This document shows positions 11,272 through 55,829 of a DNA stretch of 64,000 nucleotides, piece after piece. The stretch lies in the NCBI RefSeq assembly GCF_044704955.1, contig NC_091994.1, positions 101,060,001 to 101,124,000 of the forward strand. The letters run 5' to 3'. Origin of the DNA: Pristiophorus japonicus. Its lineage: Eukaryota. The translations under genes were made by a program, and so were the position numbers. Every line of letters starts with the position of its first letter. The first letter of the stretch is position 1. A model generated the notes under the pieces. It ran no database searches, was not told the origin of the DNA, and saw only the letters and a list, made by a program, of their open reading frames with translations.

Positions 11272-11427
11272 CTGTATCTAACCCAGGCTGTATCTGCCCT
11301 GGGAGTGTTTGATGGGGCAGTGCAGAGGGAGCTTTACTCTGTATCTAACCTGTGCTGTACCTGCCCTGGGAGTGTTTGACAGGGCAGTGTCGAGGGAGCT
11401 TTACTCTGTATCTAACCCGTGCTGTAC
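11272..11427 (+). repeat. 67-bp tandem repeat (about 2.3 units) followed by an LF-SINE-like tail
   Basis: Unit CTGTATCTAACC(C/T)GTGCTGTACCTGCCCTGGGAGTGTTTGA...GGGAGCTTTACT starts at 11272, 11339 and 11406. Confidence 0.9.
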
Positions 11428-27671: not shown

Positions 27672-28061
27672 ACTTACAGTGCTTTGGATAACTCTTCTGA
27701 TACATAGCTAGGTATCTACCCAGCTTTACCTCACTACCACTTCTGTTGACCCCTCCTTGGTCTCTAAATTGTAAGATATCCAGTTCTGGGTGAGCAGAAA
27801 TTTTCTCCAATTGAGTATTGGTGTAAAGTATCTGCTTCATGGGTACCTTGCTTAAGAATTCATAGTAACACATTGCTATTAAGAACTTGTTGGTTTATTA
27901 GCAAAGGTTTAACAATCACACTACACATTACCAGTTCATCCACCAGGCTCACAACCACATGCCTCATCATGGATCCCCTAAACCCAACTGGCTGGGGTTT
28001 TATTGAGTCTTGTGAACATCACGTGACTGGCTAAGCCACTCACAACTCAACAGCTCTACAA

Positions 28062-28732
28062 CTATTTTTGTAAGAACTTTAAATCAAGTACCCCTTTTGT
28101 GAGGGCACTCGAACCCACAAATGTCCAAATTAACATGGGAACTTTACCAAATTAAATTAAAATTCTGTTCCCGGAAGTGATGATGCACTCCAGTCTCTCC
28201 GGTGTCCATCTCTCGCGGAAGGCCGCAAGCGTACCGGTGGACACCGCGTGCTCCATCTCCAGGGACACCCTGGCTTGGATGTAACCGCAGAAGAGAGGCA
28301 GACAGTCAGGCTGAATGACCCCCTCGACCGCCTGCTGCCTGGACCGGTTGTTGGCCCCCTTGGCCGTGCACAGGAGCAGTCCTACAAGGAGGCCTTCCGA
28401 TCTGCCCAATCCCCTCCGCACAGGGTGCCCAAAGATCAGGAGTGTGGGACTGAAGTGCAACCAGAATTTGAGAAGCAGCTCCTTCAAATAATGGAGTAGG
28501 GGCTGCAACCTAGCACACTCAACATAAATGGAACACGGACTCCTCTAGACCGCAGAAATTACAGGCGGCCTGGGAGTCTGTGAACCGACTTAAAAACCTA
28601 TTGCACAGGACTGCTCCGTGCAACACCCTCCAGGCCAAGTCCCCAATAAATAAAGGGAGGACTCCCGCGTAGAAAGCACTCCATTGGGGACCCCCACCTT
28701 CTCCGGAGGGCAAGATGGTGCGCCATGGCGTG
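28062..28732 (-). mobile_element. Tx1-clade (L1 group) non-LTR retrotransposon 3' fragment, unit 1
   Basis: DTPWR...DLAWRVLHGAV...RFTDSQAACNFCGLEESVFH...KFWLHFSP resembles the Xenopus Tx1 ORF2 C-terminus (zf-RVT). Flanked by TCAACAGCTCTACAA at 28047-61 and 28733-47. Confidence 0.9.
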
Positions 28733-28747
28733 TCAACAGCTCTACAA

Positions 28748-29521
28748 CTATTTTGCAGGAAACAGAAAATCATGTGGCCCCTGATTAAAGGCAGGGGACA
28801 CACCAAACATTTTCAAACAAGTGCCCCCATTTTTTTTTGAGGGCACTGAAACCCAAATTATACAAGTGCCCCCTGGCTAAAAAGGGGGGGGGGGGCATTA
28901 AACCGGTAAATTAAACAAATTAAACTTTAAACATATAAAGCCAAATTAAAATTTGATTGCCGATGATGATGATGCATTCCAGTCCCTCCAGTGCCCACCT
29001 CTCGCGGAAGGCTGCAAGCATATCGGTGGACACCGCGTGCTCCATCTCCAGGGACACCCTGGTTCGAATGTAGCCGCGGAAGCGAGGCAGGCCATCGGGC
29101 TGAACGACCCCTCCGACTGCCCGCTGCCTGGACCGGTTGTTGGCCCCCTTGGCCGTGCCCAGGAGCAGTCCTACGAGGAGGCCTTCCGACATGCCCGATC
29201 CCCTCTGCACAGGGTAGCCAAAAATCAAGAGCGTGGGACTGGAGTGCAACCAGAATTTGAGGAGCAGCCCCTTCAAATAACGGAAGAGGGGCTGCAACCT
29301 GACACACTGAACATAAACGGAACACGGACTCCTCTAGACCGCAGAAATTACAGGCGGCCTGGGAGTCTGTGAACCGACTTAAAAACCTATTGCACAGGAC
29401 TGCTCCGTGCAACACCCTCCAGGCCAAGTCCCCAATAAATAAAGGGAGGACTCCCGCGTAGAAAGCACTCCATTGGGGACCCCCACCTCCTCCGGGTGGC
29501 AAGATGGTATGCCATGGCGTG
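28748..29521 (-). mobile_element. Tx1-clade 3' fragment, unit 2
   Basis: Same ORF2 C-terminus with a longer 3' UTR. Flanked by 15-bp repeats at 28733-47 and 29522-36. Confidence 0.9.
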
Positions 29522-30179
29522 TCAACAGCCCTACAAACCTGTGAACATACTCACAGGTGCAGACTCCACAGCTGGGAAGATCGAAGCCATTGTTTTCAGT
29601 CCCTGCCAGAAACTCTGTTCCCTAGTCATTGGTTCCATCCCGCTCCCCAACTTCTGTCTGAGGCTGAACCAGGCTGTTTGTAACTTTGGTGTCATATTTG
29701 ACCCTGAAATTAGCTTTCGATCACATATCCGCTGCATAACTAAGACCGCCTATATCCACCTCCATAACATCGCCTGTCTCTGCCCTTGCTTCAGCTCATC
29801 CGCTGCTGAAGCCCTCATCCATGCCTTTGTTACCTCTAGACTTGACTATTCCAACACGCTCCTGGCTGGCCTCCCACATTCTACCCTACGTAAACTAGAG
29901 GTGATCCAAAACTCGGCTGCTCGTGTCCTAACTCGCACCAAGCTCACCCATCACCCCTGTGCTCGCTGACCTACACTGGCTCCCGGTTAAGCAACGCCAC
30001 GATTTCAAAATTCTCTTCCTTGTTTTCAAATCCATCCATGGCCTCGCCCCTCCCTATCTCTGTAATCTCCTCCAGTCCGATAACCCCCGGAGATGTCAGC
30101 GCTCCTCTAATTCTGCCCTTTTGAGCATCCCTGATTATAATCGCTCAACCATTGGTGGCCGTGCCTTCTGTTGCCTAGA

Positions 30180-51889: not shown

Positions 51890-52618
51890 TTGAATGTTCC
51901 AGAAATTGTGCTTTGGGGGAAGTAGGAACCTTTATTTGGATTTCACTCGCCAAATACAGGAGAGGCCTAACCCAACTAGTACAGGTAAGATCTAACCCCT
52001 CCAGTACAGGATAGGCCTAACCCACCCAGTACAGCTAACTAAACACAGGTCACAGGTCAAACCTGGAACTTTTCATGCTGGAATGGCTCAATAACATACT
52101 GGGCACTAACCAACTGAGCTCTCATGGGAGCCTTCAGTAGTGTTTATATAACTTCCCGCTGTTAATATACAGTAGGCCTAATCCTATGGAATCAAAGGGG
52201 GCATTTGACTCCTCTTTGTTAAGTGACAACTCCTTGTAGGTGAGAGAATGACTAGTTCTGAGGCATCTACACTTTAGGCTGTAATGGTGTTTGTTTAATA
52301 GGATTGATTGGATAAAGGGAACAACGTGCTTGGCATATAGCGTTTCCCTGTTACATGGGTCTAGTTTATTGTGAAAAAGCTCAATGTACTCCAGAGAAAG
52401 AGTTGATTTGAAGCGAGAATTGGGGTTGATCTGTTTGGGTTAGATCTGGGTTTAGATCTTACGTGTACTGGTTGGGTTAGGCCTCTCCTGTACTGGGTGG
52501 ATTAGGCCTATCCTGTACTGGGTGGGTTAGGCCTATCCTGTATTTGGCGAGAGAAATCCAAGTAAGGATTGCCAAAGATTTCCTACTCCCCCCAAAGCAC
52601 AATTTCTAGAACATTCAA
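51890..52618. mobile_element. Foldback-like element with about 150-bp inverted arms containing 25-bp tandem units
   Basis: TTGAATGTTCCAGAAATTGTGCTTTGGGGG... versus ...CCCCCAAAGCACAATTTCTAGAACATTCAA; unit AGTACAGGATAGGCCTAACCCACCC x3 per arm; no TSD seen. Confidence 0.75.
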
Positions 52619-53974: not shown

Positions 53975-54374
53975 GACATGACCCCTCAATCGTTTTGAGG
54001 TGTCCAGCGTAGCTTTCGAGGACCTTCTCCATTTTGCTCCCAGGAACCTCTGTCATTTGTCTTTGGCCTCTAGGTTCAGCCTTCAAGTCTGTGCGGTTCC
54101 TGGCTTGGCCTTCGGATCAAGTATGTTGGCACTCCCTGTAATGTATTTGCTTCATGGGTTCTTTGCTTAAGATTTCATAGCAACACATTGCTATTAAGAA
54201 CTAGTTGATTTATTAACAAAGGTTTAACAATCACACTACACATTACCAGTTCATCCACTTGGCTCACAACTGCATACCTCATCGTGGATGACCTAGACTC
54301 AATTGACTGGGGTTTTACTGAGTCTTGTGAACATCACGTGACTGGCTAAGCCACTCACAATGCAACAGCTACAA

Positions 54375-54733
54375 CTCTTTTGTTGAGAACAAATAACCAA
54401 TGAAATCAAGTGCCCCCTGATTAAAGTTGGGGGGGGGGAATACCACAAAAACTTTTCAAGTGCCTCTTTTTTTTTAGGGCACTAAAAACCAGCAAATTAA
54501 ACAAATTAAACTTTAGACAAACATCAAAGTAAAATTTGGTTGCCGGGGGTGATGATGCACTCCAGTCCCTCCGGTGCCCACCTCTCGCGGAAGGCCGCGA
54601 GCGTACCGGTGGACACCGCGTGCTCCATCTCCAGGGACACCCTGGCCCGGATGTAACCGTGGAAGAGAGGCCGGCAGTCAGGCTGAACGACCCCCTCGAC
54701 GGCCCGCTGCCTGGACCGGCTGATGGCCCCCTT
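54375..54733 (-). mobile_element. Tx1-clade 3' fragment, unit A
   Basis: KGAISRSRQRAVEGVVQPDC...AAFRERWAPEGLECIITPGNQILL*. Flanked by TGCAACAGCTACAA at 54361-74 and 54734-47. Confidence 0.9.
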
Positions 54734-54747
54734 TGCAACAGCTACAA

Positions 54748-55181
54748 CTCTTTTGTTGCAAAACAGAAACAAACATGAAATTAAGTGCCTCCTGATTAAA
54801 GGGAAGAGGGAAACACTCCAACCAGTTTTCAAGTGCCCTTTTTTATTTTGTTTTTTTTTGTGTTTTTTTGTGGGCATTAAAACCACAAATTATACAAGTG
54901 CCCCCTATAAAAGGGCAGGGGGACACTAAAACCCGGCAATTAAAACAAATTAAACTTTAAAACATATAAAATCAAATTAAAATTTGGTTGCCGGGGATAA
55001 TGATGTACTACAGTCCCTCCGGTGCCCACCTATCGCAGAAGGCCGCGAGCGTACCGGTGGACACCGCGGGCTCCATCTCTAAGGACACCCTGGCGCGGAT
55101 GTAACCGTGGAAGAGAGACAGGCAGTCGGGCTGAACGACCCCCTCGACGGCCCGCTGCCTGGACCGGCTGATGGCCTCCTT
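54748..55181 (-). mobile_element. Tx1-clade 3' fragment, unit B
   Basis: Same ORF2 end with a different 3' UTR. Flanked by repeats at 54734-47 and 55182-95. Confidence 0.9.
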
Positions 55182-55195
55182 TGCAACAGCTACAA

Positions 55196-55392
55196 CTCTT
55201 TTGGGGTAAACAAAATTAAACATTAAATCAAGTACCCCCTGATCTGGGGGTCACTCCAAACACTTTTCACATGCCCTTTTTTGTTGTTGTTTTTTTTGGT
55301 GATTTTTGTGGGGATTTTTTGTGATTTTTTTGGGGGTATTAAAATCATATAATTTACAAGTGTCCCCTATAAAAGGAGAGGGGGACACTAAA
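55196..55392 (-). mobile_element. Tx1-clade 3' UTR-only fragment, unit C
   Basis: Same CTCTTTTG terminus and CAAGT(G/A)CCCC modules. Flanked by repeats at 55182-95 and 55393-406. Confidence 0.8.
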
Positions 55393-55829
55393 TGCAACAG
55401 CTACAAACCTGTGAGCATATTCACAGGTGCATACATTATACTCCCCAGTTCTCACCTCGGGTTTCCTTCTTGTCAAGTTGGCAAGTCTCGAGTTCAAACA
55501 CCCCTATCCCCACCAAGTTGGTCAAATCCAACTGAGCAGTCCCAGCACCTCACTAATCCCAGTATCAAATCAGCTTTTCACTAACAGATTGCACCATTTT
55601 CTCAATGGCCGCCACCCAGTTTTGTATCTGTTCGACTCGCAGCAGTAGGCTCTGCCTTCAATTCGCTGATCTGAGCTGGGGCTGTGGTTGAGGTGCTTCA
55701 ATTGGCTTCAGCACTCCTAAGAAAAACAGTTAGAAATAAAAGGGCAAAGTTTGCCCTCACCAACAGTTATGGGAAAGGAAACCTTAATTAAAAAATTCAA
55801 GATCACAAAATGAAAGGAGTGTTTTCGAG

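What the first reader, a model, noticed from the sequence alone, without database searches (positions are those of the whole stretch)
54137..55440. Site-specific Tx1 retrotransposon array inside a solo LTR (three stacked insertions, four direct repeats)
Seen: a solo LTR with TSD CTCCC is split 34 bp from one end. The 14-bp word TGCAACAGCTACAA occurs four times (54361, 54734, 55182, 55393), and each interval holds a different same-orientation Tx1 3' fragment. The homologous LTR 26 kb away is split at the same position. All five Tx1 fragments I recognised in the window lie at this site. Established: Tx1-clade elements are often target-specific (Xenopus Tx1/Tx2 in a host transposon, Keno in U2 snRNA genes, Kibi/Koshi in microsatellites). 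Inference: this is a shark Tx1 family whose endonuclease targets an LTR-retrotransposon LTR and regenerates its target with every TSD. Each solo LTR would then become a growing repeat-insert-repeat record of retrotransposition. I do not know of a description of this family or target, but cannot rule one out.
Basis: partly seen in the sequence, partly recalled or inferred. Interest (0 to 1): 0.88.

Follow-up and report, generated by a model that had tools for sequence, protein, structure and literature searches.

The report
Stacked jumping genes inherit neighbours' ends
A Tx1-type jumping gene sits at one exact spot in about two-thirds of the copies of another mobile element's terminal repeat and piles up there in ordered stacks, and most later arrivals share their front end with the copy next to them, likely because the new copy pairs with the resident one while it inserts.

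Summary
Three Tx1 3' fragments, separated by four locally copied 14-bp repeats, split a Gypsy-like solo LTR 34 bp from its 5' end. Genome-wide, 2,827 of 4,215 exactly matching LTR junctions (67%) are occupied at this base. First inserts have 58 different 5' ends among 61, so this is repeated targeting, not hitchhiking. The full-length element is 48% identical to Xenopus Tx1 ORF2.

Two corrections. (1) The inserts are not wholly independent. 36 of 57 later inserts share the exact 5' junction of an older neighbour (2 of 1,830 pairs across loci). They share rare variants only near that junction, and often have a different 3' end. They are chimeras, likely formed when the new cDNA pairs with the resident copy. 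Arrays are polarised: older to younger subfamily 20 times, the reverse once. (2) The LTR is not the lineage's only target. A younger branch with a ~90% identical endonuclease hits one site in a CR1-like LINE (15,664 junctions).

TE-targeting Tx1, including LTR targets, and TSD-separated R1 arrays are published. Frequent junction inheritance and the LTR-to-LINE switch were not found in my searches.

The parts
54132..54136 (.). Left 5-bp TSD (CTCCC) of the host LTR
54137..54360 (-). Host Gypsy-like solo LTR, long arm (its 3' part on the minus strand; holds CACGTG and an AATAAA-like word; the promoter and polyA roles are inferred)
54361..54374 (-). Target repeat 1 (14 nt; locus-private 2-nt deletion relative to the family)
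54375..54733 (-). Tx1 insert I1 (inferred oldest): last 69 codons of ORF2 plus a 145-nt-class 3' UTR ending AAAAGAG(TT)
54734..54747 (-). Target repeat 2
54748..55181 (-). Tx1 insert I2: same 5' junction as I1, 1 mismatch to I1 in the first 53 nt, 14 more in nt 54-205, and a different (219-nt class) 3' UTR; inferred chimera
55182..55195 (-). Target repeat 3
55196..55392 (-). Tx1 insert I3 (inferred youngest): 3' UTR only, with its own 5' junction
55393..55406 (-). Target repeat 4, next to the intact upstream flank where the next insertion would occur (inferred)
55407..55440 (-). Host LTR short arm: the first 34 bp of the LTR on the minus strand
55441..55445 (.). Right 5-bp TSD (CTCCC) of the host LTR
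27822..29564 (-). Second LTR of the same family with two Tx1 inserts (about 28062-28733 and 28749-29522) that share one 5' junction; they are identical over nt 35-204 from it and ~14% different beyond; weak zf-RVT match (E=0.02)

Best explanation
This is a stack of three Tx1-clade retrotransposon fragments at one fixed site of a Gypsy-like solo LTR, likely built by repeated target-primed insertion in which each new cDNA often pairs with the copy already lying next to the cut. Steps: (1) The APE endonuclease would nick the strand opposite the element at ...CTAC/AA/ACC, 34 bp into the LTR (inferred from junctions; not assayed). (2) Reverse transcription starts at the RNA's AAAA(G/U)AGUU end, and a 14-15-nt target duplication results (junctions shown). 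(3) Only the repeat that keeps the LTR's own upstream flank is likely cut again, so stacks grow on one side and are ordered in time (order shown, cause inferred). (4) In about 63% of later events the new insert ends up with the resident's 5' junction. The likely route is that the nascent cDNA anneals to or invades the homologous resident just downstream, so the duplicated stretch covers the repeat, any short inserts in between, and the first ~50-200 nt (up to kilobases in young arrays) of the resident (chimeric structure shown; timing inferred). (5) A younger branch moved to a site in a CR1-like LINE and stacks there the same way.
For: Occupancy: 2,827 occupied versus 1,388 empty exact junctions; 9,018 Tx1 3' ends at this repeat. 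Independence: 58 distinct 5' ends among 61 first inserts. TSD 14-15 nt in 43 of 52 scored; 8 diverged ones were set aside. Polarity in 90 occupied LTRs: AAAATAG-type to AAAAGAG-type 20 times, the reverse once (P=2e-5), and the AAAAGAG type is less diverged (5.4% vs 7.1%, P=2e-5). Inheritance: 36 of 57 later inserts share a junction, against 2 of 1,830 cross-locus pairs, including non-templated bases (6 of 8 pairs identical). Shared rare variants: 34 of 3,253 sites in the first 100 nt, 4 of 4,724 beyond 400 nt, control 168 of 177,075. Mismatch 7.4% versus 13.0% matched control at nt 16-50, and 11.9% versus 12.4% beyond 400 nt (n=24 pairs, P=0.001). 19 of 35 sharing pairs have a different 3' end type or a UTR more than 50 nt different in length (my count). 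In 13 of 21 closed multi-insert arrays the outermost insert shares a junction, with no upstream donor for its 3' end. ABAB blocks occur in L144, L164 and L213. The two repeats flanking junction-sharing inserts differ by 5.6%, similar to the copied tract, which fits copying at the time of insertion. Young arrays show sharp switches, e.g. 2 differences in 5,355 nt then 34 in ~1,830.
Against: No biochemical test. Plain duplicates also exist: a6/a7/a8 differ at 0-3 of 7,183 nt and b2/b3 at 10 evenly spread sites. Neighbours' UTRs are more alike than random same-type pairs (median score 0.375 vs 0.15), so some of the 36 may be simple duplicates. The window's second locus has a 170-nt perfectly identical tract between two old copies, which shows that later conversion between neighbours happens. 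21 of 57 later inserts do not share a junction (8 longer, 13 shorter than the neighbour). Specificity is a preference: of the 28 best matches to I2, 17 are in the LTR (after three manual corrections), 3 in CR1-like sites, 7 elsewhere and 1 unresolved. The 90 LTRs are the first 90 listed on one chromosome, and 41 arrays could not be closed.
Confidence: 0.68

Rival explanations
1. Second insertions are ordinary and independent. The shared 5' junctions arise later, by gene conversion or break repair between neighbouring copies (perhaps started by repeated nicking of the same site), or by crossover with the older allele.
For: It gives the same final sequence, including ABAB blocks. The 170-nt identical tract between old copies at the window's second locus shows late conversion.
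Against: It must reach 36 of 57 between copies ~11% diverged. Identity is concentrated at the 5' junction rather than spread along the homology. Tract divergence (7.4%) is close to TSD-pair divergence (5.6%). Very young arrays already show the pattern.
Confidence: 0.2
2. The arrays are tandem duplications of one insertion (slippage or unequal exchange at the 14-bp repeats), not repeated insertion.
For: Shared 5' ends; exact duplicates a6-a8 and b2/b3; neighbours' UTRs are somewhat more alike than random.
Against: 19 of 35 sharing pairs differ in 3' end type or UTR class. Shared rare variants fall to background beyond 400 nt. The subfamily order is 20:1. 21 of 57 later inserts have their own junction. 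In the window, I1, I2 and I3 have different UTRs.
Confidence: 0.07
3. One ancestral Tx1 insertion was amplified along with the LTR element (hitchhiking).
For: The site lies in the LTR's 5' region, which is copied during LTR-element replication (established knowledge).
Against: 58 distinct 5' ends among 61 first inserts; 1,388 empty LTRs; both LTR variants occur empty and occupied; the repeats follow each locus's own variant.
Confidence: 0.01
4. Targeting comes less from the endonuclease than from RNA-DNA pairing or from another part of the protein. The element's own 5' end resembles the LTR repeat, and its 3' UU pairs with the AA at the cut.
For: Full-length copies outside LTRs begin CAAT-N-GTRGAGCAGT(T)G, 9-10 of 12 like the target. 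4 of 6 hits are full-length copies joined precisely through that 12-mer, and one search found 0 unannealed full-length junctions. The endonucleases of the LTR and CR1 branches differ at only 23 of 238 residues, many of them decay.
Against: 5' homology cannot act before the first nick. Most inserts are 5'-truncated yet on target. Eight residues separate both LTR-type from both CR1-type endonucleases. One search selected for precise junctions. This rival is compatible with the best explanation and concerns only step 1.
Confidence: 0.2

Closest known systems
Xenopus laevis Tx1L (YTX2_XENLA), type element of the Tx1 clade
   Same: ORF2 is 48% identical over 1,297 aa; APE endonuclease, RT and zinc knuckle; inserts at a fixed site in another transposon (PMC1950540 and PMC4494074, passages read).
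   Different: Here the target is a Gypsy-like LTR and a CR1-like LINE, not a piggyBac derivative. The endonuclease hairpin loop is 3 residues shorter. Stacked, junction-inheriting arrays were not described for Tx1L in the passages I saw.
Crocodilian Tx1-8_Crp and Tx1-4_AMi (Kojima 2015, PMC4494074)
   Same: [quoted passage not shown]
   Different: The main text gives no site, occupancy or array structure; the supplements could not be read and may hold junction details. The relationship to this family was not tested.
Drosophila R1 tandem arrays in 28S rDNA (Stage and Eickbush 2009, PMC2718515)
   Same: Copies separated by the 14-bp TSD, formed by insertion into the TSD at the 5' end of a resident copy; the paper proposes cDNA annealing to the top strand for precise 5' junctions (passages read).
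   Different: A different clade and an rDNA target subject to concerted evolution. The passages seen do not describe inheritance of a neighbour's truncation point. Here there are thousands of dispersed, independently datable arrays.
Human L1 chimeras formed by cDNA pairing with a resident L1 (Gilbert et al. 2002/2005; recalled, not retrievable)
   Same: A new 3' part is joined to a resident 5' part, with duplication of the DNA in between.
   Different: As recalled, these are rare events of a non-specific element. Here site specificity places a homologous copy beside each cut, and the outcome is the majority.

Membership tests
Tx1 clade non-LTR retrotransposon | ORF2 with N-terminal APE endonuclease, RT and C-terminal zinc knuckle | tested here: met
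   L094 ORF2: PF03372 E=1e-9, PF00078 E=1.5e-36, PF13966 E=9e-5 (below the curated cut-off)
Tx1 clade non-LTR retrotransposon | Sequence affinity to Tx1 ORF2 | tested here: met
   48% identity to YTX2_XENLA over the full length; window fragment 35%, E=4e-10
Tx1 clade non-LTR retrotransposon | Placement in an RT tree with Keno, Kibi, Koshi, Dewa and Tx1-Mar | not tested
   No named sequences of those families appeared among the 120 listed hits
Tx1 clade non-LTR retrotransposon | ORF1 upstream, fixed 3' end, variable 5' truncation, TSD | tested here: met
   ~7.1-7.2-kb copies with an upstream ORF (no Pfam match for ORF1); 3' end AAAA(G/T)AGTT; TSD 14-15 nt in 43 of 52
Target-specific Tx1 (Kojima's criterion: >20% of flanks in one repeat) | More than 20% of copies flanked by one target | tested here: met
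   17 of the 28 nearest relatives of I2 are in the LTR. For the lineage as a whole the LTR is 4 of 30 and the CR1-like site 17 of 30, or 11 loci after merging duplicates and arrays
Target-specific Tx1 | Endonuclease nicks the target in vitro | not testable with these tools
   needs an assay
Gypsy/Ty3 solo LTR (host) | TG...CA ends with short inverted repeats and a 5-bp TSD | tested here: met
   29 of 38 with at least 4 of 5 TSD bases
Gypsy/Ty3 solo LTR (host) | Attached to an internal region with PPT and RT-RH-INT order | tested here: inconclusive
   One copy (L067/L093) has a purine tract and an integrase-like remnant (label recalled; no Pfam hit) next to the LTR, and PF17917 about 8 kb upstream across other insertions. 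No shared PBS among 30 LTR+TGG matches; no two-LTR element was seen.
CR1 LINE (second target) | RT-bearing LINE ORF2 of the CR1 clade | tested here: inconclusive
   The site lies in an RT C-terminal frame reading RDLGVLVHE/SQKV; the CR1 label is recalled, and no tree was made
R1-like tandem arrays (works like) | Copies separated by one TSD, growing at the 5'-side TSD | tested here: met
   order 20:1

The most novel reading that the evidence does not exclude
When a site-specific LINE re-targets an occupied site, the usual way it finishes integration is by pairing its cDNA with the resident copy. Thousands of dispersed LTRs and LINEs thus become one-way, time-ordered recorders in which each new entry inherits its neighbour's 5' end. 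Next to a full-length resident, a truncated cDNA is rebuilt into a full-length element, which would explain the 7-kb head-to-tail arrays with intact ORF2. The same lineage switched its target from a Gypsy LTR to a CR1-like LINE with only a handful of endonuclease changes.
Probability: 0.5. Interest if true: 0.75.

Novelty: new variant of a known kind. Interest (0 to 1): 0.58.

Why it matters
How non-LTR retrotransposons join their 5' end is still poorly understood (review PMC10760644, passages read). Here thousands of independent natural arrays offer a countable record which suggests that pairing with adjacent homology dominates when such homology is present. That bears on making targeted, full-length insertions with retrotransposon tools. 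Two young-to-middle-aged branches with ~90% identical endonucleases but different targets, one with intact ORF2 copies (12 of 15 full-length copies examined), give a direct test of what sets APE-endonuclease specificity. The polarised stacks also order Tx1 subfamilies in time without a clock.

Tried and rejected
A PBS search (LTR end + TGG) gave 30 matches with no shared downstream sequence. A PPT pattern gave 2 matches, which I did not examine. The Gypsy pol in L097 has its own different LTR and is not the host. Pfam found nothing for the window's 69-aa fragment or for three of four L093 pieces. The tree of 95 3' ends (51 older LTR inserts dropped at random) clusters 25 CR1-site copies with 2 changes inside the younger LTR group, but the bootstrap had not settled and the root is a midpoint, so the LTR-to-CR1 direction is only suggested. 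Hitchhiking and pure tandem duplication were rejected as general explanations. A 'ruler' reading of TSD length from the window's 2-nt deletion rests on one locus and is not claimed. Paper searches: searches returned 0; searches listed no description of this family, target or junction inheritance. The Gilbert 2005 paper is not held, and the Kojima supplements were unreadable. Repbase and Dfam were not available. Sequencing-run tools were not used.

Full report
OBSERVATION. The word TGCAACAGCTACAA occurs four times at the stated positions and nowhere else in the window at up to 2 mismatches (chance mean 0.76). It splits a ~272-bp element, 54137-55440, with CTCCC on both sides and inverted ends. 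The three intervals read on the minus strand as Tx1 3' ends. A second copy of the host at 27822 is split at the same site by two inserts. All four repeats lack the same two bases of the family's usual 14-mer, so they are copies of local DNA, i.e. target-site duplications. I1 and I2 end at the same 5' base, and so do the two inserts at the second locus. That was the lead I followed.

HOST. The left arm has at least 2,594 candidates in the 5.9-Gb genome. Of the 29 best other copies, 12 carry Tx1 at the same base and 17 do not (my reading). Occupied, closed copies have 5-bp TSDs (29 of 38 with at least 4 of 5 matches). One copy follows a purine tract and an integrase-like remnant (label recalled), with an RNase H match about 8 kb upstream. 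This points to a Gypsy-like LTR on the minus strand, with the site 34 bp from its 5' end and Tx1 in the same sense. No primer-binding site or two-LTR element was found, so the host label rests on one degraded copy.

ELEMENT. Natural full-length copies are 7.1-7.2 kb. One has an uninterrupted 1,309-codon frame with APE endonuclease, RT and zinc knuckle, 48% identical to Xenopus Tx1 ORF2 over its length. The 3' end is AAAA(G/T)AGTT, without poly(A). An exact 21-mer from the ORF2 end occurs 27,202 times.

TARGETING. Exact LTR-side junctions number 2,827 occupied and 1,388 empty, i.e. 67% occupied (exact matches only). Tx1 3' ends at this repeat number 9,018. Among 61 closed first inserts there are 58 different 5' ends, which excludes hitchhiking. 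TSDs are 14-15 nt in 43 of 52 scored, counting two A's shared with the element end; 8 diverged ones were set aside. The LTR is not the only target. Of the first 30 Tx1 matches on C1, 17 sit at one site of a CR1-like LINE (five are one segmental duplication and two pairs share an array), 4 at the LTR site, 8 elsewhere and 1 unresolved. That LINE junction occurs 15,664 times, with 27,414 empty sites; it lies antisense in the host RT frame. Of the 28 closest relatives of I2, 17 are in the LTR, 3 in CR1-like sites, 7 elsewhere and 1 unresolved (with L057, L056 and L044 corrected by hand). A rough tree nests the short-branched CR1-site copies inside the younger LTR group (unsettled support, midpoint root). 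The endonucleases differ at 23 of 238 residues, 8 of them consistently.

ARRAYS ARE ORDERED. I parsed the first 90 listed occupied LTRs on C1. 49 could be closed: 28 single and 21 with 2-7 inserts; 34 of 90 have at least two. Moving away from the long arm, the AAAATAG type is followed by the AAAAGAG type 20 times and the reverse once (P=2e-5); the exception lies in a duplicated block. The AAAAGAG type is the less diverged (5.4% vs 7.1%). New copies therefore enter at the repeat that keeps the LTR's upstream flank, as published for Drosophila R1 (PMC2718515, passages). In the window this makes I1 the oldest and I3 the youngest (inferred).

LATER INSERTS ARE CHIMERAS. 36 of 57 closed later inserts share the 5' junction of an older neighbour, against 2 of 1,830 cross-locus pairs, often including non-templated bases. 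They are not plain duplicates. Shared rare variants run at 1.05% of sites in the first 100 nt, 0.24% at 100-400 nt and 0.08% beyond, with a control of 0.095% (the window's two pairs are included). Mismatch rises from 7.4% (matched control 13.0%) to 11.9% (control 12.4%) (the first 16 nt, used for selection, are excluded). 19 of 35 pairs have a different 3' end type or UTR class (count). Three arrays show ABAB blocks in which a short insert was duplicated along with the junction. Young arrays at the CR1-like site show the same pattern with kilobase tracts: 1 difference in 3,721 nt then 15; 2 in 5,355 nt then 34. In the window I2 differs from I1 once in the first 53 nt and 14 times in the next 152, and has another UTR.

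MECHANISM. After the first nick, the cDNA is complementary to the sense strand of the resident copy lying just past the repeat. Annealing to it, or invading it and copying back through the repeat, yields flank-repeat-[old 5'/new 3']-repeat-old, which is the observed product. This step is inferred. TSD pairs around such inserts differ by 5.6%, near the 7.4% of the copied tract, which fits copying at insertion. Full-length copies in LTRs are joined precisely through a target-like 12-mer that the element carries at its own 5' end (4 of 6 hits; 0 unannealed; selected by pattern). This also points to cDNA annealing.

AGAINST. Exact duplicates exist. Neighbours' UTRs are more alike than random ones. 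The window's second locus has a 170-nt identical tract that must be a late conversion. Sequence alone cannot separate copying at insertion from repair soon after.

KNOWN AND NEW. Tx1 families that target transposons, including LTR retrotransposons, are published (PMC4494074; Results part 2 and passages read; supplements unreadable). TSD-separated polarised arrays are published for R1. L1 chimeras with residents are recalled only (searches failed). Nine paper searches listed no description of this family, of majority junction inheritance, or of a CR1-targeting Tx1; subscription journals, Repbase and Dfam were not searchable. Two earlier AI findings in other genomes report similar Tx1 stacks (leads only).

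VERDICT. Real; a new variant of a known kind; interest 0.58.

Noticed in passing
G000:C1:9.70-9.77 Mb (L222-L228), also C1:10.64, 22.64 and 2.72 Mb: Head-to-tail arrays of young Tx1 copies at the CR1-like site: up to 9 copies (7 full-length), separated by the TSD. 12 of 15 full-length copies examined have an unbroken 1,306-codon ORF2 frame.
   Followed up: yes
L094 and L096, Tx1 3' flank: A second CR1-like family is hit at the homologous position (repeat CTGTGGAC), also in tandem, by copies that group with the younger LTR branch.
   Followed up: partly
5' ends of full-length copies (L094, L096, L220, L240-L243): The element's first ~17 nt contain a 12-mer resembling the LTR target. It is either a captured relic of the LTR target or the reason for precise joining there.
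   Followed up: partly
L101, L102, L103, L105, L109 (C1:0.3-3.2 Mb): Five loci 98.5-99.9% identical over 3 kb: a segmental duplication carrying one CR1+Tx1 junction.
   Followed up: partly
L044: One insert in an LTR array has its 3' end about 15 nt upstream of the usual site, flanked by the LTR's upstream sequence.
   Followed up: no
L046, L057, L120, L112: Off-target sites of the LTR branch often read (T/C)ACAA followed by CC in other repeats, suggesting a short core motif.
   Followed up: no
L097:35-3250: A fairly intact, unrelated Gypsy pol (RNase H and integrase Pfam hits) with its own LTR, 4 kb from an occupied LTR.
   Followed up: partly
window 51927-52570: Two inverted 25-bp tandem arrays (51955-52034 and 52464-52542) form 112-nt inverted arms 420 nt apart, possibly a MITE-like element.
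   Followed up: no
window 55410-55425: Imperfect palindrome TGTGAGCATATTCACA in the LTR's short arm, just upstream of the insertion site; a role in recognition is untested.
   Followed up: no
window 11272-11427: 67-bp tandem repeat, 2.3 copies.
   Followed up: no
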